Origin: an uncultured Planctomycetia bacterium | GTDB lineage: Bacteria; Omnitrophota; Gorgyraeia; Duberdicusellales; 4484-171 | Assembly (NCBI GenBank): GCA_964536865.1 | Contig: CAZHYN010000004.1 | Coordinates: forward strand, 30,001-62,000 | Length of the DNA stretch: 32,000 nucleotides | Reading direction: 5' to 3' | In this document: piece after piece, positions 3,498 through 28,957 of the stretch | Position numbering within the stretch: position 1 is the first letter of the stretch | How the letters are laid out: each line of letters begins with the position of its first letter | Notes under the pieces: model-generated | Told to the model about the DNA's origin: nothing | Databases searched by the model: none | What the model saw: the letters and a program-made list of their open reading frames with translations, nothing else | Translations under genes and position numbers: made by a program

Positions 3498-3917
3498 ATG
3501 GAATTTATAACCGCTTCAGAGGAAGAAACAAAACTTTTGGCTTCTAAGTTTTCTAAAAATCTAAAGATAGGAGATGTAATTCTCTTAATTGGTCCTTTAG
3601 GGGTGGGTAAGACAGTATTTGCAAAAGGGATTCTTAAAGGGTTAGGAGAGAAGGAGGAGAGAGTAAGAAGTCCTTCTTTTACTCTTATAAGAGAATATCA
3701 AACTAAGCGAGGCAAGGTATATCATATCGATTTGTATCGGGTAAGGAGAAAGAAGGAACTGATAAACTTAGGATATCAGGATTACTTTTATTCTCCATCT
3801 GCTATCGTACTGATTGAGTGGGCAAATAAAGTGGAGAGGTTAATTCCTAAAAGTAAAAAGGTAGTTATAGATTTTTTAGGAATTAATACAAGGAGAGTAA
3901 AGATAGTAGAGAAGTAA
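3498..3917 (+). CDS. tsaE: tRNA t6A37 biosynthesis ATPase TsaE
   Basis: P-loop GPLGVGKT, SPSFTLIREY, HIDLYR and IEW, with the typical size of 139 aa. Confidence 0.85.
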   Translation: MEFITASEEETKLLASKFSKNLKIGDVILLIGPLGVGKTVFAKGILKGLGEKEERVRSPSFTLIREYQTKRGKVYHIDLYRVRRKKELINLGYQDYFYSPSAIVLIEWANKVERLIPKSKKVVIDFLGINTRRVKIVEK

Positions 3918-4593: not shown

Positions 4594-5689
4594 ACCTCTA
4601 TGGATAGAGATTAAACTAGGAAATTTAAGAAAGAACTTATCTTTAGTAAGGAGATATGTTGGAGAGTCTGTAAAGATCTTAGCTACCGTTAAACAGAATG
4701 CTTACGGTCATGGTCTTATAAGGATAGCTAAGGAGTTAGATAATTTAGGAGTGAACTTTTTTGGTGTGGGAAGTCTTGAGGAGGCTATAGCTTTGAGGGA
4801 AGCTGGGATTAAGAAGCCAATTTTAGTTCTTACTGCTTTACTTCCTTCTACAATAAAGCTTCTCATAAAGTATAGAGTGAGGCCTACTGTAGTGGATTTA
4901 GCTTTTGCTAGAAGATTAGACAAAGAGGCGAAGAGGTTAGCTAAAAAAGTTGATATACATATAAAAGTAGATACAGGAATGGGGAGATTAGGAGTTTGGT
5001 GGGAAGATGCTAAGAAGTTTATCTGCAAAGTTTGCAACCTAAAAAATCTATATGTAGAGGGACTTTTTACTCACTTTTCCTCTGCGGATACCGACTATTC
5101 TTTTACTACATTCCAGATTAAGTCTTTTAATACTCTGATTAAGGAATGTGCAAAGGAAGGGATATTTTTTAAGTACCTCCATTCCGCTAATAGTATTGCA
5201 CTCATTAAGTACAAGAGCTCGCATTTTAATTTAGTAAGGCCAGGTTTGATTCTCTATGGGATAAATCCTTACTCCAAGATGAATATTGAGTTAGCGCCTT
5301 TACTTTCTTTAAAATCAAAAGTTATATTTTTAAAGAAAGTGGACAGAGGACGAAGTATAAGCTACGGAAGGACCTATATAACTAAAAGACCTACCACTAT
5401 TGCTACTGTAGGATGTGGGTATGCCGATGGATATCCTTTTGTTCTATCTAATCGAGGCAAAGTAATTATAAAAGGAGAGTTCTTTAATATAGTAGGAAGA
5501 GTATGTATGGATCACTTTATGATTGAGGTAGGGAGTAATGAGAAGATAAAAATAAGAGATACAGTTACCCTCATAGGGAAAGAAAAAAATGCTTACTTGA
5601 AGGCAGAAGATTTGGCAAGATGGGCAAATACTATACCTTATGAGATTGTAAGTAGATTATCTTTAAGTATTCCCCGTATTTATAAATAA
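4586..5689 (+). CDS. alr: alanine racemase
   Basis: PLP-lysine motif VKQNAYGHG, full-length TIM-barrel plus beta-domain layout, 367 aa. Confidence 0.9.
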   Translation: MFRPLWIEIKLGNLRKNLSLVRRYVGESVKILATVKQNAYGHGLIRIAKELDNLGVNFFGVGSLEEAIALREAGIKKPILVLTALLPSTIKLLIKYRVRPTVVDLAFARRLDKEAKRLAKKVDIHIKVDTGMGRLGVWWEDAKKFICKVCNLKNLYVEGLFTHFSSADTDYSFTTFQIKSFNTLIKECAKEGIFFKYLHSANSIALIKYKSSHFNLVRPGLILYGINPYSKMNIELAPLLSLKSKVIFLKKVDRGRSISYGRTYITKRPTTIATVGCGYADGYPFVLSNRGKVIIKGEFFNIVGRVCMDHFMIEVGSNEKIKIRDTVTLIGKEKNAYLKAEDLARWANTIPYEIVSRLSLSIPRIYK

Positions 5690-12380: not shown

Positions 12381-12455
12381 TTAAGGTAAATGTCGGACAG
12401 CAGACTTCTAATAGTTTCCCTTGATTTTAGTTATAAATCTCCAGTTCAAAGAAAA

Positions 12456-12497
12456 AGTTAATGAATGTGAGGTTAAACCATGCCGAGGGCGGGAGTC
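12456..12497 (-). repeat. duplicate of the tRNA-Leu 3' end (17 nt, positions 57-73) plus 25 nt of its 3' flank
   Basis: 42 nt match 12807-12848 with one mismatch (AGTTAATGAATGTGAG[G/A]TTAAACCATGCCGAGGGCGGGAGTC on the + strand). Confidence 0.9.
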
Positions 12498-12536
12498 AAG
12501 GCACTGAGTGCTTCGCACTATTTTAACCAGTGCCTT
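12498..12536. other. bipartite stem-loop module W abutting a tRNA-Leu 3' fragment
   Basis: Outer stem AAGGCACTG/CAGTGCCTT (9 bp). Inner hairpin AGTGC-TTC-GCACT next to the fragment-proximal strand. 8 unpaired nt (ATTTTAAC). Confidence 0.7.
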
Positions 12537-12619
12537 CATAGGGACTCTGTCCACTTGAGGCTCGGCTCATAGGAAAAAATCACAGAAAATAACTTCGCCT
12601 CGCTGTCACCCTGAAGTAT
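12533..12619 (-). repeat. about 87-nt segment homologous to 13398-13482, in inverted orientation
   Basis: Minus strand reads ATACTTCAGGGTGACAGCGAGGCG...GGACAGAGTCCCTATGAAGG. Shared blocks with the partner are ATACT, GGGTGACAGC, CAGAG and CTATGA. Confidence 0.6.
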
Positions 12620-12707
12620 TATCAAAGAAGATATTGTTAATAATTATTTTTAGAAGGTATTTAAAAAGAATAATGTAGACCCCAATTCTGACTTTAAAAA
12701 CAAAAAG

Positions 12708-12725
12708 TGCCGAGGGCGGGAGTCG
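12708..12725 (-). repeat. second isolated copy of the tRNA-Leu 3' end (positions 56-73)
   Basis: TGCCGAGGGCGGGAGTCG is identical to 12832-12849. On the minus strand it is followed by CTTTTTGTTTTT. Confidence 0.9.
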
Positions 12726-12726
12726 T

Positions 12727-12761
12727 AACAAATTCGCCAAAGGCGATTTCCCTTATTTGTT
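12727..12761. other. bipartite stem-loop module Y abutting a tRNA-Leu 3' fragment
   Basis: Outer stem AACAAAT/ATTTGTT (7 bp). Inner hairpin TCGCC-AAA-GGCGA next to the fragment-proximal strand. 8 unpaired nt (TTTCCCTT). Confidence 0.7.
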
Positions 12762-12831
12762 CCGACAATACTTTCGTTTCAGAGTTAACTTCTAGCTTAA
12801 AAAAGAAGTTAATGAATGTGAGATTAAACCA

Positions 12832-12915
12832 TGCCGAGGGCGGGAGTCGAACCCGCACAGAGTTACCTCTACCGGTTTTTGAGACCGACGCGTCTGCCAA
12901 TTCCGCCACCTCGGC
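12832..12915 (-). tRNA. tRNA-Leu (anticodon CAA), class II with long variable arm, no encoded CCA
   Basis: Minus strand: GCCGAGG TG GCGGAATTGGCAGACGC G TCGGT CTCAAAA ACCGG TAGAGGTAACTCTGT GCGGG TTCGACT CCCGC CCTCGGC A. All stems pair and the anticodon loop is CU-CAA-AA. Confidence 0.93.
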
Positions 12916-12990
12916 ATTTACTTTATATTATTATCCTACTCCTATTAGTCTTGCTCCTTAACAACTTCTCTCTTCTATTAACTACACGGG

Positions 12991-13033
12991 AACAACTAAA
13001 TTGAGCTTCGCTGTAATAACAGCGAAAGTTGTT
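12991..13033. other. bipartite stem-loop module X abutting the tRNA-Leu 5' fragment
   Basis: Outer stem AACAACT/AGTTGTT (7 bp). Inner hairpin TTCGCTGT-AATA-ACAGCGAA next to the fragment-proximal strand. 9 unpaired nt (AAATTGAGC). Confidence 0.7.
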
Positions 13034-13034
13034 A

Positions 13035-13081
13035 CCGCCACCTCGGCATTTACTTTATATTATTATCCTACTCCTATTAGT
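13035..13081 (-). repeat. duplicate of tRNA-Leu positions 1-13 plus 34 nt of its upstream flank
   Basis: 47 nt identical to 12903-12949 (CCGCCACCTCGGCATTTACTTTATATTATTATCCTACTCCTATTAGT on the + strand). Confidence 0.92.
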
Positions 13082-13200
13082 TCTGTCTATAGGATTTTTT
13101 CTATTAACTAATAATAACTACTAAATTAGTCTTTACCTCTTGACGGAGAAGACTATTTTTTCTTGGTCTCTATTTCTTTATTTGTTCCGGGAACTTTAAA

Positions 13201-13229
13201 ATCTTAGCATTAGCAAAATTCTTTGTCAA
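13201..13229 (-). promoter_or_regulatory. candidate sigma70 promoter facing the tRNA-Leu locus
   Basis: Minus strand: TTGACA (13229-13224), 17 nt, TAAGAT (13206-13201). Confidence 0.45.
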
Positions 13230-13258
13230 TTGACAATTTTTCTGTTAGATGATATATT
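13230..13258 (+). promoter_or_regulatory. near-consensus sigma70 promoter facing the tRNA-Ala array
   Basis: TTGACA (13230-13235), 17 nt, TATATT (13253-13258). The -35 is the right half of the palindrome TTGTCAATTGACAA. Confidence 0.6.
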
Positions 13259-13310
13259 TTAGTTTAAAGTTTCTCCCTAAAGTAGACAGAGCATATAGAT
13301 AGATGAGAGA

Positions 13311-13350
13311 GGCCGTAGTTTCCGCCAAAGGCGGACCCACTTATGAGGGG
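13311..13350 (+). repeat. degenerate tRNA-Ala 5' fragment (GGCCGTAGTT) followed by a 30-nt twin-hairpin element copy
   Basis: GGCCGTAGTT, then TCCGCCAAAGGCGGA, then CCCACTTATGAGGGG. The second hairpin has lost one base pair relative to the other copies. Confidence 0.75.
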
Positions 13351-13397
13351 CGATCCTTGATGGGCCATTTAAAAATAAATAAATTTCTTCTTTGGTC

Positions 13398-13482
13398 ATA
13401 CTCTAGGGGTGACAGCAAGCCGTGTTTAACTACCTCGGATTTACTTATAGGCTTGCGTCAGAGGGGCAGAGCCCCTATGAGG
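13398..13482 (+). repeat. about 85-nt segment homologous to 12533-12619 (inverted partner)
   Basis: ATACTCTAGGGGTGACAGCAAGCCG...GGCTTGCGTCAGAGGGGCAGAGCCCCTATGAGG. It contains stem GCAAGCC/GGCTTGC and hairpin GGGGC-AGA-GCCCC. Confidence 0.6.
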
Positions 13483-13495
13483 AGCGTAAGCGACA

Positions 13496-13547
13496 GGGCC
13501 GTAGTTTCCGCCAAAGGCGGACCCGCTTATGAGCGGGCAGCAGGGAG
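13496..13547 (+). pseudogene. truncated tRNA-Ala 5' fragment (positions 2-22) with the 31-nt twin-hairpin insert between nt 12 and 13
   Basis: GGGCCGTAGTT[TCCGCCAAAGGCGGACCCGCTTATGAGCGGG]CAGCAGGGAG. Identity to the tRNA stops after G22. Confidence 0.85.
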
Positions 13548-13548
13548 T

Positions 13549-13594
13549 AAGTTGTCTGCAACGTTAAGTTGCAGTATTCTTAAATATACAACTT
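13549..13594. other. bipartite stem-loop module S1 abutting the tRNA-Ala 5' fragment
   Basis: Outer stem AAGTTGT/ACAACTT (7 bp). Inner hairpin CTGCAAC-GTTAA-GTTGCAG next to the fragment-proximal strand. 13 unpaired nt. Confidence 0.7.
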
Positions 13595-13658
13595 CCTCCA
13601 TTGTTTATGATGTTAAAGATAGGCTGTCTCTTTAAAATAGAAGCTAAAGAAAAGTGAT

Positions 13659-13734
13659 GGGGCCGTAGTTCAGCAGGGAGAACGCTACGCTGGCAGCGTA
13701 GAGGTCAGGGGTTCAAATCCCCTCGGCTCCACCA
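13659..13734 (+). tRNA. tRNA-Ala (anticodon GGC), intact, CCA encoded
   Basis: GGGGCCG TA GTTC AGCAGGGA GAAC G CTACG CTGGCAG CGTAG AGGTC AGGGG TTCAAAT CCCCT CGGCTCC A CCA. The G3:U70 alanine identity pair is present. Confidence 0.95.
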
Positions 13735-13819
13735 GTTAGATTGTTAAATTCTCATTTTTAGGTGATATAAATGTTTTTATTAATAGATGGTAATTTTTAA
13801 GGTTTTCCAGTAAAATTGC

Positions 13820-13872
13820 GGGGCCGTAGTTTCCGCCAAAGGCGGACCCGCTTATGAGCGGGCAGCAGGGAG
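13820..13872 (+). pseudogene. second truncated tRNA-Ala 5' fragment (positions 1-22) with the 31-nt insert between nt 12 and 13
   Basis: GGGGCCGTAGTT[31-nt insert 13832-13862]CAGCAGGGAG. It is a copy of 13496-13547 offset by 325 bp. Confidence 0.85.
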
Positions 13873-13873
13873 T

Positions 13874-13919
13874 AAGTTGTCTGCAACGTTAAGTTGCAGT
13901 ATTCTTAAATATACAACTT
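13874..13919. other. bipartite stem-loop module S2 (copy of S1)
   Basis: Identical to 13549-13594, offset by 325 bp. Confidence 0.7.
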
Positions 13920-13983
13920 CCTCCATTGTTTATGATGTTAAAGATAGGCTGTCTCTTTAAAATAGAAGCTAAAGAAAAGAGAT

Positions 13984-14090
13984 GGGGCCGTAGTTCAGCA
14001 GGGAGAACGCTACGCTGGCAGCGTAGAGGTCACGGGTTTCCGCCAGAGGCGGACCCGCCTTTAGGCGGGCAAATCCCGTCGGCTCCACCA
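13984..14090 (+). tRNA. tRNA-Ala (GGC) copy interrupted in the T-loop by a 31-nt insert (intron-bearing gene or recent pseudogene)
   Basis: It matches 13659-13734 at all positions except a compensatory T-stem pair (ACGGG/CCCGT) and the insert at 14039-14069 between T55 and C56. CCA is encoded. Confidence 0.7.
14039..14069 (+). repeat. 31-nt twin GC-hairpin element, T-loop copy
   Basis: TCCGCC-AGA-GGCGGA followed by CCCGCC-TTTA-GGCGGG. Same length and architecture as 13507-13537 and 13832-13862. Confidence 0.85.
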
Positions 14091-14107
14091 GCCAATTCCT
14101 TAAAGAG

Positions 14108-19929: not shown

Positions 19930-22257
19930 ATGGAAGAGTATTATCGTTCCTACTGCGATGATGATCTCTGGTTAATTAGAGAAACTGTATGGGCCCCTTC
20001 TCTTCAAAATATCCGTGAATCCCAGTTTACCTTGGGCAATGGTTACTTTGCTAGTCGAGGAGTTTTAGAGGAGATCCCTTACCAGGCTATGTCTGGCACC
20101 TACATTGCAGGAATTTACGATGGAATTGGTTCTCAGGTTAAGGAGTTAGTAAATTTCCCTAATCCCTTCAATTTCCGTTTTACAGTGAAGGGAGAAAAAG
20201 TTGGTTTAGCAACAATGAGGAATGTATTTCATAAGCGTATCTTAAATACTAAGAAGGCAGTCTTGGTAAGGCATACACTTTTTGAGAATGTAAGAAGACA
20301 CAGATTCGATTACCAGTCTATAAGGTTCGTTTCTCTAGATAATAAGAATTTAGGAGTCATGCAGATTATCTTTACTCCCCTAGATAAAAATTGCCTTTTA
20401 GATATCTATACAGGAATTGATACTTCAGTTTTTAATGTAGGTACAGTTACTGAAGGTAAGAAAAGACACTTTAAAGTTAAGGAAGCAGGTCAGTTCAAAG
20501 ACGCAGGTTATTTGGCAGTTGTAACTTTAGAGAAGAAGTATGTAGTGATTTACTGGGCAGGATTTTACTATGAAGTTGATGGGAAAAAGATACCTGCTTC
20601 TGACAATGTTTTTCAACTCGAACTTAAGAAAGACCAGAGTGTGAAATTTACTAAATTATTTTTTATAAAACATTTTCCTTATCGAGAAGATATCCACCTT
20701 TACAAAGAAAGGACATTTGTTAGATTTTCTCAAGCCTTCCGCACGGATTTTAATAAGCTTATCACTCAACATATAAAGAAGTGGGAGAGTGTATGGAGAA
20801 AGGTAGATATACTCATTGAGGGGACAGCTAATCTGCAGCAAAATTTAAGATTCAACCTCTATCATCTTCTCATAGCTGCTCCCCAAGATAGAGGATTTTC
20901 CAGTATTGGTGCTCGAACTTTAAGTGGAGAAGGTTACCGGGGACATGTCTTTTGGGATACTGAGTTATTTGTGATGCCTTTCTATCTTTATACTCTCCCT
21001 CAAGTTGCCAAAAATATTCTTCTCTATCGCTACCGAAGGTTACCTAAAGCTAGGGAGTTAGCCAAGAATGAAGGATATAATGGAGCTAAATTTCCTTGGG
21101 AATCTGCAGATACGGGAGAGGAAGAAACACCTGCCTGGGCAAGAGATTTCGATAGTTCCATTATAAAGATTCAAACCCATCTTTACGAACATCATATAAC
21201 TGCGGATGTAGCTTATGCTTTCTATAGATACTACTTAGCTACTGGTGACGAAGAGTTCTTAAAAAAATATGCCTGCGAAGTTATTTTTGAGACAGCACGT
21301 TTCTGGGCTTCTCGAGTTTTTTACAATAGAACTACTAAGAGATACGAGATAAGAGGGATAATTGGGCCAGATGAGTTTCACATTAATGTGAATAACAATG
21401 CTTATACTAATGGCTTGGTACAGTGGATTCTTTCTTTAGGTCATACTCTCTTTTTCTACCTTAAAAAGAGAGCGCCATCATCTTTCTCTCAACTTAAGGA
21501 GAAATTAGGACTTAGGGAGAAGGAAGTAAAGGAGTGGGTAAAGATCGCTAAGAAGCTTAAGTTAAATATAGATAAGAAGAGTAGAGTTATTGAACAATTT
21601 GATGGATATTTTAAATTGAGAGAGATAGAACTTGAGAAAACCGATGAGAATGGCATTCCTCTTCTTCCTAAGTACCTTAAAGCTAAAGACTTAAGGTATA
21701 CAAAACTCATAAAACAGGCTGACGTTTTGATGCTTCTCTATATCTTAACGAATAAGTTTAGTTCCTCCGTAATAAGAGCCAACTATAATTACTACATAAA
21801 AAGGACTCTTCATAAATCCTCTCTCAGTGCTCCTATTCATGCCATAATGGCAGTAAAGTGTGAAGACATGCACCGGGCTTATAATCTTTTTAATGTTTCT
21901 CTCCGTACTGATATAAGCAATCTTTACGGTAATACTCAGGAAGGTATTCATGCGGCAAGCTTAGGAGGAACGTGGCAAGCGGTAGTTTTTGGTTTTTGTG
22001 GGATAGAATTTATAGATGATATAATTAGTGTTACCCCTAAATTTCCTCGTACCTGGCAAAAGGTGAAATTCTCTCTCACTTATCGAGGCGATAGAGTAGA
22101 ATTTGATTTGACAAATGAGGAGGTGAGAGTAAAAATAGTATCTAAAAAGAAGAAAAAAACGAAAGTGGTAGTATTTGGTAAACCTTATTCTATTTTGACT
22201 AATAAAAAGTATAAGTTTTTCAAAAAAGGTGTTAAGAAGGAGGAGTACTATTACTAA
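19930..22257 (+). CDS. glycoside hydrolase family 65 protein (disaccharide phosphorylase-like), paralog 1
   Basis: N-terminal SQFTLGNGYFASRG, GEGYRGHVFWDTELF, FPWESADTGEE and the catalytic-acid region GPDEFHINVNNNAYTN. Confidence 0.85.
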   Translation: MEEYYRSYCDDDLWLIRETVWAPSLQNIRESQFTLGNGYFASRGVLEEIPYQAMSGTYIAGIYDGIGSQVKELVNFPNPFNFRFTVKGEKVGLATMRNVFHKRILNTKKAVLVRHTLFENVRRHRFDYQSIRFVSLDNKNLGVMQIIFTPLDKNCLLDIYTGIDTSVFNVGTVTEGKKRHFKVKEAGQFKDAGYLAVVTLEKKYVVIYWAGFYYEVDGKKIPASDNVFQLELKKDQSVKFTKLFFIKHFPYREDIHLYKERTFVRFSQAFRTDFNKLITQHIKKWESVWRKVDILIEGTANLQQNLRFNLYHLLIAAPQDRGFSSIGARTLSGEGYRGHVFWDTELFVMPFYLYTLPQVAKNILLYRYRRLPKARELAKNEGYNGAKFPWESADTGEEETPAWARDFDSSIIKIQTHLYEHHITADVAYAFYRYYLATGDEEFLKKYACEVIFETARFWASRVFYNRTTKRYEIRGIIGPDEFHINVNNNAYTNGLVQWILSLGHTLFFYLKKRAPSSFSQLKEKLGLREKEVKEWVKIAKKLKLNIDKKSRVIEQFDGYFKLREIELEKTDENGIPLLPKYLKAKDLRYTKLIKQADVLMLLYILTNKFSSSVIRANYNYYIKRTLHKSSLSAPIHAIMAVKCEDMHRAYNLFNVSLRTDISNLYGNTQEGIHAASLGGTWQAVVFGFCGIEFIDDIISVTPKFPRTWQKVKFSLTYRGDRVEFDLTNEEVRVKIVSKKKKKTKVVVFGKPYSILTNKKYKFFKKGVKKEEYYY

Positions 22258-23452
22258 GAAGGAGAAAGTTCACAAAAAAAAGTTAAGTATTGCTCACCTC
22301 CATTGGGGATTCCCCCCTATTATAGGAGGGGTAGAAACCCACCTTACCATAATTCTCCCTCAGATGGCAAAAAAAGGTTATAAGGTGTCTCTTTTAACTT
22401 GTTCTGCAGAAAAGGCGAAAGCAAGAGAAAGTTACTGTGGTGTAGAAGTTTTTCGTTATCCCATTATGGACTTAAACTGGCTCTATAAAAGAGGGTTACA
22501 GGGATTGGAGGAGGAGGTAACTCACATTTTCACTTCCTTTATAGATAAGACTAAACCTCATATTCTTCATGCCCATAATATGCATTATTTTAGTGAGATT
22601 CACGCTTTCACTCTAGAAAGAATAGCGAAGAAGAAGGGTATTCCTTTGATTCTTACTGCTCATAATGTTTGGGATGACGTTTTATTTTTAGAACTTACTC
22701 ATAAGATAGATTGGCAGCATATTATTGCGGTAAGCCACTATATTAAGAGAGAAATTATAGGGATAGGTGTTGATGATAGAAAAATTACTGTTGTTCATCA
22801 TGGTTTAGATGAAACTAAGTTCCATCCTCGGATCAAATCATCACGAATTTTGAAAAAATATCCTCAGCTTAAGGGTAGGAAAGTAATTTTTCATCCTGCA
22901 AGAATTGGTTTAGCTAAGGGATGTGACATAAGTATTAAGGCTGTAAATATCGTAAGAGAGAAGTATCCCGAAGTAATTTTAGTATTAGCGGGTTCTAGAA
23001 ATATCATCGATTGGGGAGCGACTCAGCAGAAAGATATCGCTTACATGGTAAATCTTATAAAACATTTTAGGTTAGAAAAAAATATTCTCATTGATTTCTA
23101 TTCTTTGGAAGAGATGCGTGAACTTTATGCTCTGAGCGATATTTGTGTTTATCCTTCTACAGTTCCTGAACCTTTTGGATTGACGATGCTGGAGGCTCAG
23201 GCTTGTGGCAAACCCATGGTAGTTACTAACTCAGGAGGAATGCCTGAGATAATAAAAGATGGGGTAAATGGTTTTGTTATTAATATTAGAGATTTTGAGA
23301 ACTTAGCAGCTAAAATTGTTCAATTGCTAGAAGATAGGCGTTTGCGAGAAAGATTAGGTTATACAGGGAGGCAGATTGTGGAGTCTTATTATACTAAGGA
23401 GAGGGTTACTCACGATACACTTGCAGTTTATAAGAAGTTTATTAATTTTTAG
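22229..23452 (+). CDS. GT4-family (GT-B) glycosyltransferase, acceptor unknown
   Basis: N-terminal PPIIGGVETH. C-terminal EPFGLTMLEAQACGKPMVVTNSGGMPEIIKDGVNGF. The start codon is uncertain: GTG 22229 overlaps the end of GH65-1. Confidence 0.75.
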   Translation: MLRRRSTITKKEKVHKKKLSIAHLHWGFPPIIGGVETHLTIILPQMAKKGYKVSLLTCSAEKAKARESYCGVEVFRYPIMDLNWLYKRGLQGLEEEVTHIFTSFIDKTKPHILHAHNMHYFSEIHAFTLERIAKKKGIPLILTAHNVWDDVLFLELTHKIDWQHIIAVSHYIKREIIGIGVDDRKITVVHHGLDETKFHPRIKSSRILKKYPQLKGRKVIFHPARIGLAKGCDISIKAVNIVREKYPEVILVLAGSRNIIDWGATQQKDIAYMVNLIKHFRLEKNILIDFYSLEEMRELYALSDICVYPSTVPEPFGLTMLEAQACGKPMVVTNSGGMPEIIKDGVNGFVINIRDFENLAAKIVQLLEDRRLRERLGYTGRQIVESYYTKERVTHDTLAVYKKFINF

Positions 23453-23461
23453 AAGTTAGAT

Positions 23462-24931
23462 ATGCTTAGGGGATGGAGCAAAAAAACTGTAATAGACCTA
23501 GTAAAGACTAAGTTAGAGAGGGCCTTATTTGTCGTTGTCTCTAACCGCCAACCTTACATCCATAAATTTATTAAAGGGAAAATTCATTGTTTAAAAGGTC
23601 CGGGAGGAGTGGTAACCGCTATTGATCCTGTAATGCAGGAGATTAAAGGTTTATGGGTCTGCTGTGGTAGTGGAGATGCCGATAAAATTGTGGCTAAAGA
23701 TAGTAAAGTGAATGTTCCTCCGGAGATGCCATCTTATCAAGTTAAGTATGTATGGTTAACTAAGGAAGAGAATTTAGGTTATTATTATGGATTTTCTAAT
23801 CAAGCTCTCTGGCCTCTCTCTCATCTGGTTTTTGTTAAACCAATATTTAGAGACGAGGATTGGAGAATCTATAAAGAGGTGAATAAAAAATTTGCTCAAA
23901 GTATCTATGAAGAAATAAAGGATAAGAGGGCAGTAGTGTTTATTCAGGATTATCATCTTGCTATGGTAAGTAAGTATTTAAAGGAGAGCAAACCCGATGT
24001 TGTTACTATTCTTTTTTGGCATATTCCCTGGCCTACTTACGATGTGTTTAGAATCCTTCCCTGTAAACAAGAATTTTTAGAAGGTTTACTTAGTTATAAT
24101 CTCTTAGGGTTTCATATAAGGTACTTCTGTAACAATTTCTTTGAGGCAGTAGCAAACGAACTGGAGAGCAAAATAAATAGAGAGACTTCTACTATTATCT
24201 ATCAAGGTAAATCTACATTAGTAAAAGCTTATCCTATAAGTATTGATTTTGAAGGGATAAGTAATAAGAGTGGAGAAAAAGATGTAGAAGAGGCTATGGT
24301 GTCTTTAAAAGAAGAGTTTGGTTTAGAGGGTTACAAGATTATTGTGGGGTTAGATAGAATAGATTATACCAAAGGAATAGTAGAGAGAATTCTAGCCATA
24401 GATAAACTCCTTCAGTTGCACCCCGAGCTTAGAGAGAAGATTATATTCATTCAGATGGGTGAAATATCTCGTATTCATATAGCTCAGTACAAACAACTCA
24501 ACGATCAAATAAATGCCTTGGTAGAGGAGGTAAACTTTAAGCATTCTACCGATAGTTGGCGACCTATAATTTTTGTAAGGAGACACCTTTCTTTCAGTGA
24601 ACTTTTAGCCTTCTATAGATTAGCAAATGTATGTATAGTAAGTTCTCTCCATGATGGAATGAATCTGGTAGCTAAGGAATTTATCTCTTCTCGGTGTGAC
24701 GAATTAGGAGTACTCCTCTTAAGTAGGTTTACAGGAGCAGCACGAGAGCTTAAAGAAGCGGTTCTTATCAATCCTTACTCTCAAAGGGAGAGTGCAGAAG
24801 CGCTTTTCTTTGCTCTTGGTATGAAGGAAGAGGAACAAAAAAGGAGGATGAAAGCTTTAAGAGTGTATATTCAGCGTAACAATATCTGGCGTTGGATTGG
24901 TAAAATAGTTGTTGATATTCCTTGGAAGTGA
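23462..24931 (+). CDS. otsA: alpha,alpha-trehalose-phosphate synthase (GT20)
   Basis: VVSNRQPY, GGVVTAIDP, WPLSH, IQDYHL, FWHIPWP, GLDRIDYTKGI and LHDGMNLVAKEF. Confidence 0.9.
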   Translation: MLRGWSKKTVIDLVKTKLERALFVVVSNRQPYIHKFIKGKIHCLKGPGGVVTAIDPVMQEIKGLWVCCGSGDADKIVAKDSKVNVPPEMPSYQVKYVWLTKEENLGYYYGFSNQALWPLSHLVFVKPIFRDEDWRIYKEVNKKFAQSIYEEIKDKRAVVFIQDYHLAMVSKYLKESKPDVVTILFWHIPWPTYDVFRILPCKQEFLEGLLSYNLLGFHIRYFCNNFFEAVANELESKINRETSTIIYQGKSTLVKAYPISIDFEGISNKSGEKDVEEAMVSLKEEFGLEGYKIIVGLDRIDYTKGIVERILAIDKLLQLHPELREKIIFIQMGEISRIHIAQYKQLNDQINALVEEVNFKHSTDSWRPIIFVRRHLSFSELLAFYRLANVCIVSSLHDGMNLVAKEFISSRCDELGVLLLSRFTGAARELKEAVLINPYSQRESAEALFFALGMKEEEQKRRMKALRVYIQRNNIWRWIGKIVVDIPWK

Positions 24932-26523
24932 TGGATGATGTTGCTTTTCCTTTCCAAGCAGTTGTTTTTGATTTAGATGGTGTAATTACCCAAACTGCCT
25001 ACCTTCATTTCCAAGCTTGGAAGCAAACCTTTGATGAGTATTTACGTTTCAGAGAGAAAGAAAAATTTAGAGAATTTACTGAGCAAGATTATCTTAACTA
25101 TGTAGATGGAAGACCACGCTATGATGGAGTTAAGACTTTTCTTTCCTCTCGAGGGATTCAAATTAGTTGGGGAGAGCCTACTGATTCTCCTGGTGAGGAA
25201 ACAATCTGCGGGTTAGGGAATAAAAAAAATGTGATTTTTAAAAATCTTTTAGAAAGTAAAGGAGCCAAAAAGTATCCTACCACAGTAGAGTTTATCCAAG
25301 AGCTTAAAGAAAAGGGAATAAAGATAGGTGTAGCCTCTTCCTCTAAAAATTGTCGTGCTATTCTCAGCTCTACCCGAATTATAGATCTCTTTGATGCTTG
25401 TGTAGATGGGATAGTTTCTCAACAGTTTAATCTTCAGGGTAAACCTGAACCAGATATATTTCTCTTAACTAGTAAAGATTTGAAGGTTTCCCCTTCCAAG
25501 ACAGTTGTAGTTGAAGATGCTAGTTCAGGGGTAGAGGCAGCTCGCAATGGAGGTTTCGGATTAGTCATAGGAGTTGCCCGCAAAGATAATAAAGAAGATC
25601 TCTTAAATTCGGGAGCGGATTTAGCATTGAGTGATCTAAAGTTCATAGATATAGAGTGGATCAATGAATGGTTTAAAAAAAGCCCTTTTTACCTTTTTGA
25701 TTTCTGGGATAGAGGAACAAGAGAGGAATTAGGAGTTTTTAAGAAGAACGAAGATATAGTTTTAAACCCCTGGTATTTTTTGAGCTTTAAAGATGCTATT
25801 TTTTCCAGAAAGCAGTTAGCCTTTTTCTTTGATTATGATGGCACACTTACCCCTATTGTTAAGAGACCAGAATTAGCAGTGTTATCTACCCAGATGCGCT
25901 CCTTAATTAAAAAAATAGCTAAGAAATACCCTACCGCCATAGTGAGCGGAAGACAGAGAGAAGAGGTAGAAAAGTTAGTAGGAGTAGAAGGCATTTACTA
26001 TGTAGGAAGCCATGGTTTTGATATAAAAGGAGGCGGTTTTTCTTATATTCATCCCCAGCTAAAGGGAATAGTTCCTTTAATCTCTCATATAGCAGAAGAG
26101 TTTTCTACCAAGTTGAGAAGTATCCAGGGGGTGATCATTGAGAATAAGAAGTTCAGTGTTGCTCTCCATTATCGTCTGGTAGAGGATAAGTTCTTAGACA
26201 ATATTAAGAAGGTAGTAGATGAAGTAAAGAGAGAGTATTCTAACTTGCGGTTAATGTGTGGCAAGAAGGTTTTTGAATTTATGCCTGATATTGATTGGGA
26301 TAAAGGTAAAGCCATAAGATGGCTTCTTAGTATACTAAATATTTCTTGGAGAGAGTATGCAGTAATTTATATTGGCGATGATACTACTGATGAAGATGCA
26401 TTCAGAATGGTGCGGACTAGGGGAATAGGGATTCTAGTTTCTGAAGGTAAGGCTACTTCAGCAGCTGATTACTTTGTTCACTCTCCCCAGGAAGTTAGAA
26501 AGCTTTTAGAAAGATTTGTATGA
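24931..26523 (+). CDS. fusion protein: beta-phosphoglucomutase-like HAD domain (N-terminal) plus trehalose-6-phosphate phosphatase domain (C-terminal)
   Basis: N-terminal half: VVFDLDGVIT, GVASSS and EDASSGVEAA. C-terminal half: FFFDYDGTLTPIV, VSGR and GDDTTDEDAF. The ATG overlaps the otsA TGA (TGATG). The ORF track starts it at TTG 24922. Confidence 0.8.
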   Translation: MDDVAFPFQAVVFDLDGVITQTAYLHFQAWKQTFDEYLRFREKEKFREFTEQDYLNYVDGRPRYDGVKTFLSSRGIQISWGEPTDSPGEETICGLGNKKNVIFKNLLESKGAKKYPTTVEFIQELKEKGIKIGVASSSKNCRAILSSTRIIDLFDACVDGIVSQQFNLQGKPEPDIFLLTSKDLKVSPSKTVVVEDASSGVEAARNGGFGLVIGVARKDNKEDLLNSGADLALSDLKFIDIEWINEWFKKSPFYLFDFWDRGTREELGVFKKNEDIVLNPWYFLSFKDAIFSRKQLAFFFDYDGTLTPIVKRPELAVLSTQMRSLIKKIAKKYPTAIVSGRQREEVEKLVGVEGIYYVGSHGFDIKGGGFSYIHPQLKGIVPLISHIAEEFSTKLRSIQGVIIENKKFSVALHYRLVEDKFLDNIKKVVDEVKREYSNLRLMCGKKVFEFMPDIDWDKGKAIRWLLSILNISWREYAVIYIGDDTTDEDAFRMVRTRGIGILVSEGKATSAADYFVHSPQEVRKLLERFV

Positions 26524-28946
26524 AAGATTCTACCTGGACGATTACCTACACTCACTTTGAACCTGCTCATGAGGGACTACGGGAGGCCCTATGTACTTTG
26601 GGTAACGGTTACTTTGCTACTCGAGGAGCCGCTCCTGAAGGGATAATCTCAAAAATTCACTATCCAGGAACTTACATTGCTGGAGTTTATAATAAACTCT
26701 CTACTAACCTAGCAGGGAAAATAGTAGTTAATGAAGATTTAGTAAATTGTCCTAACTGGCTCTATATTACCTTTAAGGTCGGAGAGGAAGATTGGTTTAT
26801 TCCTTCAGAAGCTAACCTCACCTTTTACCATCAGGAGTTAGATATGCGTGAAGGCATATTGAAGAGAACACTTAAATTTAAAGATAAACAAGGAAGAGTT
26901 ACTCAGGTATTTACCGAGAGGTTAGTTCATATGAGGTATCCCCATATAGGAGCATTGAGGTATCTTATTGCTCCTTTAAACTATGACGGTTGGATTACTG
27001 TAAGAGTTATGCTTGATGGAGCAGTAGAGAATAGAGGAGTGGAGAGATACCGGCAATTGAATTCCAAACATCTTAAACCTTCTGCCTTAGGTAGCTTTGG
27101 AAAAGATGGTATATACTTGGTTATGGTTACTTCTCAATCGAAGATAAAAATAGCCCAAGCTTGCAGAGTTTCGTTCTTTATAAATGGAGAGAGAGCAAGG
27201 CCAGTGATAAAGACCGTACGCCGGCGATTGATGGAAGGTAGAGAAAGGATTGGTCAGGAGTTCCGTTTCTTCGCTCGTCGGAGAGTTTCCTATGAGGTGC
27301 AGAAGATTGTCTCTATATATACCTCTAAAGATTTCTTGAAAAGAGACCCTGCCAAAGAAGCAATCAGAGCGGTAAAGAGGGTGCCCTCTTTTATTAAATT
27401 GGTAGCTCATCAAAGGCAAACCTGGCAAAGTCTTTGGAATAGATTCGATATAACTATTCAGGGAGATAAATTTTCTCAGTGGGCGTTAAGGGTCCATATT
27501 TTTCATCTTTTGCAAACAGCCTCTCCTAACAATGTCAATTTAGATGTAAGCATTCCTGCTCGTGGTCTTCATGGAGAAGCTTACCGAGGTCATATCTTTT
27601 GGGATGAGATTTTTATTATGCACTTTTATGATCTTCACTATCCTCAGATTTCTAAGGTCTTTCTCTTGTACCGTTACCGGAGATTAGAGAAAGCAAGACA
27701 GTTAGCTAAGAGATTCGGTTACAAAGGGGCTATGTATCCTTGGCAAAGTGCCTCAACGGGAGATGAGGAGACTCAGATGTATCACTTGAATCCTCTCTCG
27801 GGTAAGTGGGGACCCGATTATAGTTCTTATCAAAGACATATCTCTTTTGCTGTTGCTTATAACGTATGGAAGTACTGGGAAAGAACTTTGGATTTTCAAT
27901 TCCTTATTCACTTCGGTGCAGAGATGATTCTTTCTATAGCTCAGTTTGGAGCAAGCCTTGTTAGTTACAGTAGAAAAGATAAGCGCTACCATACTGAAAG
28001 AGTGATGGGGCCAGACGAATTTCATGAAAGATATCCTCATGCTAAGCAACCAGGGCTTAGAGATAATACCTATACTAACTTTATGATTGTCTGGACTCTC
28101 AATAAGGCCAAGGAGGTTATTAAAATTCTACCTTCCTCTTATAAAAACAGACTTTTCAAAAAACTAGGAATAACTGAGAAGGATTTGAAACTTTGGGATG
28201 ATATTACCAGAAGGATGAATATAGTGATCAATCGCAGGGGTATCATTGCTCAATTTGATGGTTACTTTGCTCTTAAAGAATTAGATTGGAAAAAGTACAT
28301 GTTTGAGTACGGGGACGTTAAAAGGATGGATAGAATCTTAAAAGCCGAGGGGAAAACTCCTGATGAATACAAGGTAACTAAGCAGGCAGATGTCCTTATG
28401 ATTTTTTATCTTTTCTCTCTTCGAGAAATCAAGAAAGTTTTTAATGAGTTAGGATATAGATTTGATCTTAAAATGTTGAGAAAAAACTATGAATACTATA
28501 GTAGGAGAACCTCTCATGGTTCTACTCTGAGCAAAGTTGTACATTGTTTTGTAGCTCATAGTCTAGGGAAGAAAGAAGAAGCGTGGGATTGGTTTGTAGA
28601 TACGTTAGAATCAGATATATATGATACTCAGAGAGGGACTACTCCTGAAGGAATTCATACGGGAGTTATGGGAGGTTCCATCGATGTAGTAGTAAGAGCA
28701 TTTGCAGGTTTAAGTCTGGGTGATTCTATCAGGATAAATCCTTCTCTTCCTAAAAAATGGAGAAAACTCAGTTTAAAATTTCTCTACAGAGACCTGTGGT
28801 TTACTCTTTCTATTAGAGATAGAGCTTTTACACTCTCTGTAGATAAGGAAAAAAGGAGTAAAATATCTACTTCCATAGATATTGTAGTAGGGAATAGAGT
28901 TTATAAATTCCCCTTAGTAAGGAAGGCTACCTTCTCTATAAAGTAA
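26520..28946 (+). CDS. glycoside hydrolase family 65 protein (disaccharide phosphorylase-like), paralog 2
   Basis: REALCTLGNGYFATRGA, GEAYRGHIFWDEIF, YPWQSASTGDE and GPDEFHERYP. The ATG overlaps the preceding TGA (ATGA). Confidence 0.85.
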   Translation: MKDSTWTITYTHFEPAHEGLREALCTLGNGYFATRGAAPEGIISKIHYPGTYIAGVYNKLSTNLAGKIVVNEDLVNCPNWLYITFKVGEEDWFIPSEANLTFYHQELDMREGILKRTLKFKDKQGRVTQVFTERLVHMRYPHIGALRYLIAPLNYDGWITVRVMLDGAVENRGVERYRQLNSKHLKPSALGSFGKDGIYLVMVTSQSKIKIAQACRVSFFINGERARPVIKTVRRRLMEGRERIGQEFRFFARRRVSYEVQKIVSIYTSKDFLKRDPAKEAIRAVKRVPSFIKLVAHQRQTWQSLWNRFDITIQGDKFSQWALRVHIFHLLQTASPNNVNLDVSIPARGLHGEAYRGHIFWDEIFIMHFYDLHYPQISKVFLLYRYRRLEKARQLAKRFGYKGAMYPWQSASTGDEETQMYHLNPLSGKWGPDYSSYQRHISFAVAYNVWKYWERTLDFQFLIHFGAEMILSIAQFGASLVSYSRKDKRYHTERVMGPDEFHERYPHAKQPGLRDNTYTNFMIVWTLNKAKEVIKILPSSYKNRLFKKLGITEKDLKLWDDITRRMNIVINRRGIIAQFDGYFALKELDWKKYMFEYGDVKRMDRILKAEGKTPDEYKVTKQADVLMIFYLFSLREIKKVFNELGYRFDLKMLRKNYEYYSRRTSHGSTLSKVVHCFVAHSLGKKEEAWDWFVDTLESDIYDTQRGTTPEGIHTGVMGGSIDVVVRAFAGLSLGDSIRINPSLPKKWRKLSLKFLYRDLWFTLSIRDRAFTLSVDKEKRSKISTSIDIVVGNRVYKFPLVRKATFSIK

Positions 28947-28957
28947 ATAGTTCATAA

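What the first reader, a model, noticed from the sequence alone, without database searches (positions are those of the whole stretch)
13311..14069. Family of 30-31-nt twin GC-hairpin elements always inserted at GTT|C(A), with no target duplication
There are four copies: 13321-13350, 13507-13537, 13832-13862 and 14039-14069. Each is two tandem hairpins: TCCGCC-ARA-GGCGGA, then CCCGC-TTATGA-GCGGG or CCCGCC-TTTA-GGCGGG. Length is conserved at 31 nt even where the stem and loop of hairpin 2 changed in a compensatory way. The left flank is always GTT and the right flank always C. The two distinct contexts are G10-T11-T12|C13-A14 in the D-stem and G53-T54-T55|C56-A57 in the T-loop of tRNA-Ala, so the same GTT|CA pentamer is used in both. 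No flanking duplication is visible. Hairpin-ended elements that insert 3' of a short specific target without target-site duplication are the hallmark of single-strand HUH/Y1 transposition (IS200/IS605, REP/RAYT). No such transposase, nor any other, is in this window. Caveat: the three D-stem copies may descend from one insertion by segmental duplication, so only two independent insertion events are demonstrable here.
Basis: partly seen in the sequence, partly recalled or inferred. Interest (0 to 1): 0.8.

Follow-up and report, generated by a model that had tools for sequence, protein, structure and literature searches.

The report
Tiny twin-hairpin mobile DNA element
Four copies of a 30-31-base, two-hairpin piece of selfish DNA sit in and beside alanine-tRNA genes of an uncultured Omnitrophota bacterium. 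The same element is scattered through many uncultured bacterial phyla and inserts cleanly at TT|VR sites, even inside essential protein genes. The enzyme that moves it is unknown.

Summary
Four twin GC-hairpin elements lie at 13321-13350, 13507-13537, 13832-13862 and 14039-14069, each flanked GTT|...|C with no target duplication.

Ten related Omnitrophota contigs carry copies 1 and 2. Each has a single tRNA-Ala(GGC) with an uninterrupted T loop. Copy 4 is therefore a recent, exact 31-nt insertion between T55 and C56. Copy 3 comes from a local duplication.

The family is not local. One pattern scan of 185,579 species genomes stopped at its 120-locus limit. The hits were in Patescibacteria, Omnitrophota, Planctomycetota, Kiritimatiellia, Chloroflexota and others.

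- Consensus is TCCGCC-NNA-GGCGGA-CCCGCC-TNN-GGCGGG, 30 nt.
- The target is TT|VR, with no duplication and no strand bias.
- A third of copies lie inside long ORFs, including RecG, UvrA, SecA and LeuRS.
- 83% of those are in the one frame that reads (S/P)AxGG(P/S)AxGG, so they are translated, not spliced.
- In tRNA or 5S rRNA contexts, wherever the neighbourhood was readable the element lies in a redundant or partial copy next to an intact gene.

No transposase was found, and two features do not fit IS200/IS605. I found no published description.

The parts
13321..13350 (+). Element copy 1. Hairpin 1 is intact and hairpin 2 is decayed (CCCAC-TTATGA-GGGG). It sits at a chimeric junction between tRNA-Ala positions ~3-12 and the 3' part of a tRNA-Ile-like gene.
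   Evidence: The same copy is present in relatives L129-L138.
13311..13320 (+). tRNA-Ala 5' fragment (GGCCGTAGTT, ending at T12), the left flank of copy 1.
   Evidence: family D2. Compared with the tRNA-Ala at 13659.
13351..13367 (+). CGATCCTTGATGGGCCA, which looks like positions 56-76 of a tRNA-Ile-like gene. It is the right flank of copy 1, so copy 1 joins a D-stem site to a T-loop site.
   Evidence: Compared with the end of tRNA-Ile and the spacer that follows it in the rRNA operon contig L142. This is inference from sequence similarity.
13368..13495 (+). ~130-nt spacer module, paralogous to the rRNA-operon spacer downstream of tRNA-Ile. An inverted, ~70%-identical copy lies at about 12540-12660.
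13496..13506 (+). tRNA-Ala 5' fragment (positions 2-12), the left flank of copy 2.
13507..13537 (+). Element copy 2 (31 nt), inserted between T12 and C13 of a tRNA-Ala 5' fragment. Shared with all relatives.
13538..13547 (+). tRNA-Ala positions 13-22 (CAGCAGGGAG), the right flank of copy 2. The fragment ends here.
   Evidence: These bases track the D loop of the intact gene in each lineage.
13659..13734 (+). Intact tRNA-Ala(GGC), T stem AGGGG/CCCCT. It serves as the in-window empty site for both insertion positions.
13821..13831 (+). tRNA-Ala 5' fragment, the left flank of copy 3.
13832..13862 (+). Element copy 3. It is identical to copy 2 and arose with the 218-nt duplication (13496-13713 = 13821-14038).
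   Evidence: Absent from relatives.
13984..14090 (+). Second tRNA-Ala(GGC), T stem ACGGG/CCCGT, interrupted in the T loop. Otherwise it is a perfect cloverleaf.
   Evidence: Rfam tRNA model, 49.3 bits with a 36-nt insert. Fold. Orthologues in L129-L138 are uninterrupted.
14039..14069 (+). Element copy 4 (31 nt, TCCGCC-AGA-GGCGGA-CCCGCC-TTTA-GGCGGG). It is a recent, exact insertion between T55 and C56.
   Evidence: The empty site CACGGGTT|CAAATCCCGTC is seen in ten related contigs. The filled site is seen in three independent assemblies, L001-L003.

Best explanation
The four sequences belong to a widespread family of very small (30-31 bp), non-autonomous mobile DNA elements. Each is two abutting GC hairpins, TCCGCC-NNA-GGCGGA and CCCGCC-TNN-GGCGGG.

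Shown:
- The element is inserted as an exact unit at 5'-TT|VR-3' sites, with no target duplication.
- It is translated when it lands in a protein gene. It persists mainly in the one frame that gives the flexible peptide (S/P)-A-x-G-G-(P/S)-A-x-G-G.
- In structural RNA genes, wherever the neighbourhood was readable, it lies in a redundant or partial copy beside an intact gene.
- In this window, copies 1 and 2 are old insertions in tRNA-Ala-derived spacer DNA, inherited from an rRNA-operon-like segment. Copy 3 is a local duplicate. Copy 4 is a recent insertion that disrupted the T loop of one of two tRNA-Ala(GGC) genes.

Inferred:
- The element is moved in trans by an enzyme encoded elsewhere that recognises the two hairpins. 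The most likely candidate is a single-strand-DNA HUH-type (Y1) nuclease/ligase. That is the main well-characterised bacterial chemistry that gives hairpin-dependent, duplication-free insertion with no shared crossover core. I put about 0.35 on this step.
- Recombination between copies explains the chimeric tRNA fragments around it.

I put about 0.9 on the mobile-element part.
For: My own estimate for equiprobable bases is about 1-2 chance hits.

Conserved flanks: T at -2 in 81%, T at -1 in 74%, non-T at +1 in 95%, A or G at +2 in 89%.

No target duplication: k=2-6 matches are at or near chance, with none at k>=4.

Empty sites:
- The orthologous tRNA-Ala is uninterrupted in L129-L138.
- 10-residue gaps appear at the insertion sites in orthologous RecG, UvrA, SecA and LeuRS.
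- The RecG site is occupied only patchily among its 120 closest homologues.

Translation rather than splicing: 35 of 42 ORF-embedded copies are in one frame. Available target sites would predict 60% for sense and 48% for antisense copies; p = 0.014 and 0.002.

Hairpins: DNA folds and a compensatory stem change between copies 2 and 4.

Redundant-copy rule: every EL-bearing tRNA or 5S piece whose neighbourhood could be read has an intact gene of the same identity 100-400 nt away.

Copy 1 joins an Ala D-stem flank to an Ile-like T-loop flank.
Against: - No transposase was seen in the window, in 10 kb further downstream, or recurrently in 120 x 8 kb around other copies.
- The target preference spans the insertion point, whereas IS200/IS605 targets lie wholly 5' of it.
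- Orientation is unbiased relative to GC skew, 54:50.
- The hairpins abut the ends, leaving no room for the guide sequences known from IS608.
- The element is rare in this genome. No other copy was found in about 42 kb sampled (the window plus 10 kb downstream), and no source for copy 4 was found.
- The family was sampled with a pattern that fixes the stems, so the apparent sequence invariance is partly by construction.
Confidence: 0.6

Rival explanations
1. It is an RNA-level intervening sequence: a mini-intron or excised spacer removed from tRNA and mRNA after transcription. On this view the interrupted genes remain functional.
For: - The interrupted tRNA-Ala (13984-14090) and the tRNA-Val of L022 are otherwise perfect cloverleaves.
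- The element extends from the T loop as a self-contained stem.
- It occurs in essential genes.
Against: - The strong reading-frame bias in ORFs, 35 of 42, would not be needed if the element were spliced out.
- Decayed peptide versions persist in RecG homologues.
- Every interrupted tRNA or 5S piece whose neighbourhood could be read has an intact twin nearby.
- There is no bulge-helix-bulge pairing with the exons.
- The element occurs in both orientations relative to the host gene.
Confidence: 0.05
2. It is moved by a double-strand mechanism: a dimeric enzyme makes a blunt cut in the quasi-palindromic target TT|VR (Y at -2 on both strands) and joins in the 30-bp duplex. No single-stranded HUH chemistry is involved.
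For: - Target information is roughly symmetric about the insertion point.
- There is no strand bias.
- The element is itself quasi-symmetric, since its reverse complement is again a twin hairpin.
Against: - I know of no bacterial transposase family that gives blunt, duplication-free insertion.
- No enzyme candidate was found.
- The two ends are consistently different, T...A-closed versus C...G-closed hairpins.
Confidence: 0.15
3. It is primarily a host-useful structured motif, such as a terminator, processing signal or protein-binding site like REP/BIME. On this view it spreads by duplication and recombination rather than transposition.
For: - Copies 1 and 2 lie in transcribed-spacer-like DNA that is also found in the rRNA operon.
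- Some copies sit at the tip of longer inverted repeats or between inverted short-repeat arrays.
Against: - Copy 4 is a new insertion into a T loop with no flanking DNA carried along.
- Copies lie inside conserved protein cores.
- The flanks share only TT|VR.
Confidence: 0.07
4. The tRNA fragments and hairpins are attachment-site scars of integrase-driven genomic islands that target tRNA genes.
For: The region 12400-14100 is full of tRNA-Leu and tRNA-Ala fragments whose breakpoints lie in the T loop and D stem.
Against: - No integrase is present.
- The fragments are only 100-400 nt from the intact genes.
- The same 30-mer occurs inside ORFs and 5S rRNA in other phyla.
- Copy 4 is a clean 31-nt insertion.
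Confidence: 0.03
5. It is a chance palindrome or an assembly artefact confined to this locus.
For: The locus is repetitive, and other assemblies break there.
Against: - 4 matches against 0.08 expected.
- Three independent assemblies share copy 4.
- More than 120 loci were found in unrelated projects, including a single-cell genome.
Confidence: 0.01

Closest known systems
Rickettsia palindromic elements (RPE)
   Same: Palindromic selfish repeats that insert in frame into protein-coding genes, and also into RNA genes, and are translated as tolerated peptide insertions. The in-frame insertion is described in the MITE review PMC10969869, read. The RNA-gene point is from my own knowledge.
   Different: RPEs are about 100-150 bp, confined to Rickettsia, and unrelated in sequence. 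This element is 30 bp, occurs in many phyla, and has a defined TT|VR target with exact, duplication-free insertion.
REP / REPIN elements mobilised by RAYT (HUH Y1) transposases
   Same: Short GC-rich hairpins of 20-40 bp occurring as an inverted pair. Here the hairpin-1 loop NNA mirrors the hairpin-2 loop TNN. They are non-autonomous and are thought to be moved in trans through single-stranded DNA.
   Different: This element carries neither of the tetranucleotide tags (GTAG or CGTC) that mark most REPs (PMC3733652 abstract; flanks). REPs are extragenic, whereas a third of these copies are inside ORFs. No RAYT was identified.
IS200/IS605 family and its palindrome-associated derivatives (PATEs)
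   Same: No terminal inverted repeats, a hairpin at each end, no target duplication, and a T-rich sequence immediately 5' of the left end.
   Different: Here the target information lies on both sides of the insertion point. The hairpins are terminal and leave no guide spacers. No replication-strand bias was seen by the GC-skew proxy. No TnpA was found. The element is several-fold smaller than described PATEs (the size comparison is my own knowledge).
Mitochondrial double-hairpin elements (Allomyces and other fungi/protists) and yeast mitochondrial GC clusters
   Same: GC-rich two-hairpin units of tens of bases that are mobile within AT-rich genomes. They are found in spacers, rRNA and protein genes, and their mobilising activity is unknown. 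This is from my own knowledge; the papers listed mention them.
   Different: They occur in organelles, are unrelated in sequence, and some classes are reported with short flanking repeats. No bacterial counterpart turned up in my searches.

Membership tests
IS200/IS605-derived non-autonomous element (PATE) | Insertion without target-site duplication | tested here: met
   Matches between k-mers left and right of 120 copies are at or near chance, with none at k>=4. Exact empty sites are seen in tRNA-Ala orthologues.
IS200/IS605-derived non-autonomous element (PATE) | Hairpins at both ends and no terminal inverted repeats | tested here: met
   Twin 6-bp hairpins fold at z about -5. However, the hairpins are terminal rather than subterminal.
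IS200/IS605-derived non-autonomous element (PATE) | Target is a fixed tetra- or pentanucleotide lying wholly 5' of the left end | tested here: inconclusive
   TT at -2/-1 carries about 1 bit per position. Positions +1 and +2 also carry 0.28 and 0.66 bit, and positions -3 to -7 are weak.
IS200/IS605-derived non-autonomous element (PATE) | Orientation bias toward the lagging-strand template | tested here: not met
   Local GC skew on the element's forward strand was positive in 54 loci and negative in 50. This is a proxy from 8-kb stretches only.
IS200/IS605-derived non-autonomous element (PATE) | Cognate Y1 (HUH) TnpA in the same genome with matching end hairpins | not testable with these tools
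   None in the window or the adjacent 10 kb. No hairpin-1...cargo...hairpin-2 unit was found in 120 loci. No recurrent transposase-like cluster was found. Whole genomes could not be read.
REP/REPIN-RAYT | Conserved GTAG or CGTC tag at one end of the palindrome | tested here: not met
   The element starts TCCGCC and its flank logo shows only TT|VR. The tags are as described in the abstract of PMC3733652, which says most, not all, REPs carry one.
REP/REPIN-RAYT | Extragenic location | tested here: not met
   42 of 123 copies lie deep inside ORFs of at least 150 codons.
REP/REPIN-RAYT | Two hairpins in inverted orientation forming the mobile unit | tested here: met
   The loop asymmetry NNA versus TNN is mirrored between hairpins 1 and 2. 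The loops are not mutually complementary beyond chance, 13 observed versus 12.2 expected.
Rickettsia palindromic elements | In-frame, translated insertion into conserved protein genes | tested here: met
   35 of 42 copies are in one frame. Clean 10-residue insertions are seen in RecG, UvrA, SecA and LeuRS.
Rickettsia palindromic elements | ~100-150 bp consensus families of Rickettsia | tested here: not met
   The element is 30 nt in 114 of 124 copies, and its hosts are other phyla. No direct sequence comparison with RPE consensus sequences was run.
Classical TIR MITE (DDE transposase) | Terminal inverted repeats plus a target-site duplication of fixed length | tested here: not met
   No duplication was found.
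tRNA intron (archaeal bulge-helix-bulge type or group I) | Removed from the transcript, so that the interrupted gene is the functional copy | tested here: not met
   An intact same-anticodon gene is always adjacent where the neighbourhood was readable. There is no exon-intron helix. The frame bias in ORFs argues against removal. No RNA data were available.

The most novel reading that the evidence does not exclude
This is a previously undescribed class of minimal prokaryotic transposon. It is a self-contained 30-bp twin hairpin that is harmless when translated in one frame in either orientation. It inserts exactly at TT|VR and has spread horizontally among Patescibacteria, Omnitrophota, PVC phyla, Chloroflexota and others. 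The enzyme that moves it has not been identified and may be a new hairpin-recognising nuclease/ligase. The element also remodels tRNA and 5S gene neighbourhoods, because only hits in duplicated copies survive.
Probability: 0.35. Interest if true: 0.9.

Novelty: new variant of a known kind. Interest (0 to 1): 0.75.

Why it matters
If this holds, it is among the smallest mobile units known in bacteria, and it lives in the least-studied phyla.

- It offers a clean system for finding a new hairpin-specific DNA-insertion enzyme: an exact 30-bp payload, a 4-bp target and no duplication.
- It explains unexpected Gly/Ala/Ser/Pro decapeptide insertions in conserved proteins of CPR bacteria and Omnitrophota.
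- It explains pseudo-tRNA fragments and assembly breaks next to tRNA and rRNA genes in metagenome-assembled genomes.
- It gives a natural marker for recent insertion events between closely related uncultured strains.

Tried and rejected
- Rfam, at gathering and permissive thresholds, names nothing at the elements apart from the tRNAs.
- Searching for a cargo-bearing autonomous version, with hairpin 1 and hairpin 2 separated by 150-4000 nt, found only trivial pairs in 120 loci.
- All-against-all clustering of 2,209 ORFs around 120 copies gave no recurrent transposase-like family. It found only housekeeping genes, with RecG in 7 loci, and spurious ORFs across tRNA-Ser fragments.
- The idea that the element targets hairpin loops was dropped. 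Flank complementarity of at least 5 bp occurs in only 7 copies, against 2.7 expected.
- The idea that the 30-mer is one long hairpin was dropped. The loops do not co-vary, 13 versus 12.2, although the consensus with complementary loops can fold that way.
- Viral contigs gave 1 hit in 2.9 million, so there is no sign that phages carry it.
- E. coli genomes gave no match, and plasmids gave only weak partial matches at E about 0.9.
- A metagenome scan for the copy-4 subtype gave 0 hits. The scan for the copy-2 subtype gave 2 hits, one of them the rRNA-operon contig L142.
- Six literature searches, including literal sequence strings, found no description.
- ARAGORN on element-deleted flanks recovered only 2 full tRNAs, because most hosts are fragments. 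An nhmmer tRNA profile and reading by eye were needed.
- A look-up of the TatD protein at the left edge of the window found no record, so the upstream flank of the contig was not examined.
Full report
**1. The observation**

The window is bacterial, about 35% G+C, and encodes housekeeping genes. Exact protein matches place it in a Candidatus Omnitrophota metagenome-assembled genome, on an 86.7-kb contig.

Between a GDSL-lipase gene ending at 12380 and an endonuclease-IV-like gene starting at 14108 lies 1.7 kb of non-coding DNA. It holds tRNA-Leu(CAA) at 12831-12916 on the minus strand, an intact tRNA-Ala(GGC) at 13659-13734, and many tRNA fragments.

The hairpin-1 pattern occurs 4 times against 0.08 expected. 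As single-stranded DNA, copies 2-4 fold into two adjacent 6-bp hairpins, z about -5.3. Copy 1 has a decayed second hairpin.

The flanks are GTAGTT|...|C for copies 1-3, which is tRNA-Ala position 12|13. For copy 4 they are GGGTT|...|CAAATCC, which is position 55|56. Rfam's tRNA model reads 13984-14087 as a tRNA with a 36-nt T-loop insert, 49.3 bits.

**2. History of the four copies**

Ten contigs from related Omnitrophota populations in other samples cover the same intergenic region (L129, and L130-L138 except L137). All of them have the same layout:
- copy 1;
- a ~130-150-nt module;
- copy 2 inside a tRNA-Ala 5' fragment (positions 1-22);
- a ~115-nt spacer;
- one tRNA-Ala(GGC) with the T arm CACGGGTTCAAATCCCGTC.

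That T arm is the same variant as the window's interrupted gene, but without the insert. Copy 4 is therefore a recent, exact 31-nt insertion with no duplication and no loss of target bases. Independent assemblies L001-L003 carry the filled site.

Copy 3 belongs to a 218-nt, 99%-identical repeat that only the window genome has. That extra segment supplies the second, intact tRNA-Ala.

Copy 4 differs from copies 1-3 at five positions, including a compensatory T-A to C-G pair in hairpin 2. It was not copied from its neighbours. Its source was not found in about 42 kb of this genome (the window plus 10 kb downstream) or in the JGI metagenome scan.

The module, fragment-plus-element and spacer also precede tRNA-Ala(UGC) in an rRNA operon spacer in the sample that also holds the window's organism (L142). 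The old copies therefore sit in DNA derived from transcribed spacer.

Copy 1's right flank, CGATCCTTGATGGGCCA, resembles positions 56-76 of the tRNA-Ile that precedes this module in the rRNA operon. Copy 1 thus joins an Ala D-stem site to an Ile-like T-loop site. That is what recombination or deletion between two element copies would leave. This last point is inference.

**3. The family beyond the window**

I scanned one genome per species (185,579 species) with TCCGCCNNNGGCGGACCCRCN{4,8}GYGGG. The scan stopped at its 120-locus limit. My own estimate for equiprobable bases is 1-2 chance hits.

The hosts are almost all uncultured:
- Patescibacteria/CPR, about 45 loci;
- Omnitrophota, about 22, including a single-cell genome;
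- Planctomycetota, about 14;
- Kiritimatiellia and Lentisphaerota;
- Chloroflexota;
- low-G+C genomes labelled Gammaproteobacteria;
- Melainabacteria, Ignavibacteria and others.

The element is 30 nt long in 114 of 124 copies. Loop 1 is NNA and loop 2 is TNN, so the two hairpins are mirror images, but the loops are not mutually complementary beyond chance.

It is essentially absent elsewhere. There is 1 hit in 2.9 million viral contigs, none in 5,426 E. coli genomes, and only weak partial matches in 72,556 plasmids. Because the pattern fixes the stems, the true family is probably broader. Variants seen in passing include hairpin-1/hairpin-1 doublets and compensatory CCCACC/GGTGGG stems.

**4. 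Target and insertion chemistry**

Flank information is confined to four positions. T at -2 and T at -1 carry 1.09 and 0.89 bit. Non-T at +1 carries 0.28 bit. A or G at +2 carries 0.66 bit. TT|CA is the commonest site, at 23 of 112.

There is no target duplication at any length from 2 to 6. Orientation does not correlate with local GC skew, 54:50. Only a minority of copies sit at the tip of a pre-existing inverted repeat, 7 against 2.7 expected.

**5. Copies inside protein genes**

Forty-two of 123 copies lie deep inside ORFs of at least 150 codons. Thirty-five of these are in a single frame. Sense copies read S-A-x-G-G-P-A-x-G-G and antisense copies read P-A-x-G-G-S-A-x-G-G.

TT|VA sites are themselves commoner at codon boundaries: 60% for sense and 48% for antisense. 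The observed 83% still exceeds this, p = 0.014 and 0.002. Selection against the other frames, which give PPKADPPLAG or RQRRTRLRR, is therefore the likely cause.

The hosts include essential, conserved genes: RecG, UvrA, SecA, LeuRS, IleRS, PheT, TopA, PriA, PyrG and pyruvate kinase. Alignments with orthologues show clean 10-residue insertions, for example:
- UvrA: glgvegwf[PAQGGSALGG]sveecp versus glgvenlw----------sekice;
- SecA: keyviv[PTEGGSASGG]kngeiiivdeftg versus rdyiv-...-engeviivdeftg.

Among the 120 closest homologues of one RecG, the site HG(K/R)(L/M)|K carries the peptide in six and decayed versions in others (PAKGGSAFGR, PAKDGSAVGG). Others lack it. The insert is therefore translated and can become part of the protein. 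A spliced element would not need a frame.

**6. Copies in RNA genes**

Roughly 15% of copies lie in or against tRNA- or 5S-derived sequence. The sites are the D loop (AGCTCAGTT|GG), the T loop (GGTT|CGA), the anticodon loop in antisense orientation (GGTTTT|CAAGACC in tRNA-Ser(UGA)), and 5S rRNA (GAAGTT|AAGC).

In every case whose neighbourhood could be read, the host is a partial or duplicate copy, and an intact gene of the same identity lies 100-400 nt away. Examples are Val-GAC, Ser-UGA, Ser-CGA, Thr-UGU, Pro-GGG, Val-CAC and 5S. In two cases (L075, L108) no same-identity gene was confirmed, because the contig ends or the scan showed none nearby.

The window shows the same thing directly: two tRNA-Ala(GGC) genes, one of them hit.

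The simplest reading is survivorship, and it is inference. The conserved loops of tRNAs offer good TT|VR sites. Hits in a sole functional copy are lost, and hits in a duplicated copy persist and then decay or recombine.

**7. Mechanism**

Shown: exact insertion of a fixed 30-31-bp unit at TT|VR, no duplication, two hairpins with conserved but different closing pairs, and mobility since the divergence of close relatives.

Inferred: mobilisation in trans by a hairpin-recognising enzyme. DDE transposases give duplications, and here there are none. Tyrosine and serine recombinases need a crossover core shared between the donor junction and the target. Here the junction would be GGG|TCC against TT|VR, with nothing shared.

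Points against the IS200/IS605 form of that model:
- the target information straddles the insertion point;
- no strand bias was seen;
- there is no room for guide sequences;
- no TnpA was found.

I therefore give about 0.35 to HUH, about 0.15 to a symmetric double-strand mechanism, and leave the remainder open.

**8. Comparison with known elements**

In behaviour it is closest to Rickettsia palindromic elements, which are in-frame, translated palindromic insertions. In architecture it is closest to REP/REPIN doublets and to mitochondrial double-hairpin elements and GC clusters.

It fails defining tests for each family:
- for REP, it carries neither the GTAG nor the CGTC tag, and it is not extragenic;
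- for RPE, the size and the hosts are wrong;
- for TIR-MITEs, there is no duplication;
- for tRNA introns, there is no evidence of removal.

Six full-text searches, including literal sequence strings, found no description. That library is incomplete, so prior description cannot be excluded.

**9. Limits**

- Only 8 kb around each external copy could be read, so copy number per genome, replichore orientation and gene co-occurrence are untested.
- NCBI labels of some metagenome-assembled genomes may be wrong.
- The window's repeat region is hard to assemble, so the exact number of 325-nt units is less certain than the existence of copy 4.

Noticed in passing
window 12727-12761 (+) and 12991-13033 (element reads on the - strand); L129 471-512: A second hairpin-element family has the form AACAAnT-[inner hairpin]-~8 nt-AnTTGTT. 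It abuts a tRNA-Leu 3' fragment (12708-12725, break at T-loop position 55|56) and a tRNA-Leu 5' fragment (about 13034-13047). In the relative L129 the outer stem is kept but the inner hairpin is entirely different (CTGCGAC/GTCGCAG versus TCGCC/GGCGA).
   Followed up: partly
window 12481-12537: A tRNA-Leu 3' fragment (12481-12497) is joined at its T-loop end to a different palindrome, AAGGCACTG...CAGTGCCTT (12499-12537). The tRNA-Leu 3' end plus trailer therefore occurs three times, at about 12481, 12708 and 12831.
   Followed up: no
window 13368-13495 and 13548-13658; inverted copy about 12540-12660; L142 391-680: The spacer DNA around copies 1-3 is paralogous to the 16S-23S spacer between tRNA-Ile and tRNA-Ala(UGC). 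The 115-nt spacer has a hairpin (13556-13574) followed by CTCTTTAAAA (13628-13637), which resembles rrn boxB/boxA antitermination signals. That resemblance is my reading and was not tested.
   Followed up: partly
window 13538-13547 and 13863-13872 versus 13671-13680; L130-L138; L129: The ten bases after the element in the tRNA-Ala fragment always match the D loop of the neighbouring intact gene within a lineage: CAGCAGGGAG here, CAGTTGGGAG in L130-L138, and CAGTGGGGAG versus CAGCGGGGAG in L129. The lineages differ from one another. This points to concerted evolution by gene conversion, or to a function for the fragment.
   Followed up: no
L026, L031 (two copies), L037 (Omnitrophota BS750m-G21); L034, L007 (Omnitrophota single-cell genome AM-311-C11): In these genomes the element sits between inverted arrays of 6-7-nt tandem repeats (for example GTTACAG... 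| ...CTGTAAC). It forms the centre of a much longer imperfect palindrome in intergenic DNA.
   Followed up: no
L101 about 4760-4830; L052 about 3800-3880; window 13483-13493: Other, larger palindromic insertions interrupt tRNA D and T loops in Omnitrophota genomes. The one in L101 is also a twin hairpin (TCCGAC...GTCGGA, GTCCCGAC...GTCGGGA). It shares the 11-mer AGCGTAAGCGA with the window's spacer module.
   Followed up: no
L013, L027, L038, L066, L081, L123 and RecG homologues P0021-P0140: RecG is hit unusually often: 7 of 120 loci, at four or more different sites, in CPR and Omnitrophota. One site, HG(K/R)(L/M)|K, is occupied patchily across Magasanikbacteria-like homologues.
   Followed up: partly
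window 13303-13635 (+): A 110-codon ORF runs across copies 1 and 2 and the spacer. It has no Pfam match and is almost certainly spurious. Similar spurious ORFs across tRNA-Ser fragment plus element cluster together from 8 loci.
   Followed up: yes
window 19930-30818: A trehalose metabolism cluster: two GH65 phosphorylases, a GT4 glycosyltransferase, trehalose-6-phosphate synthase (GT20), a HAD/trehalose-phosphatase fusion, DUF5752 and a TreT-like synthase. It is conserved in the relatives.
   Followed up: no
window 13735-13820: The 86 nt after the intact tRNA-Ala has no counterpart in the relatives' locus. The extra tRNA-Ala unit is therefore not a simple tandem duplication of the ancestral arrangement, and its origin is unknown.
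   Followed up: no
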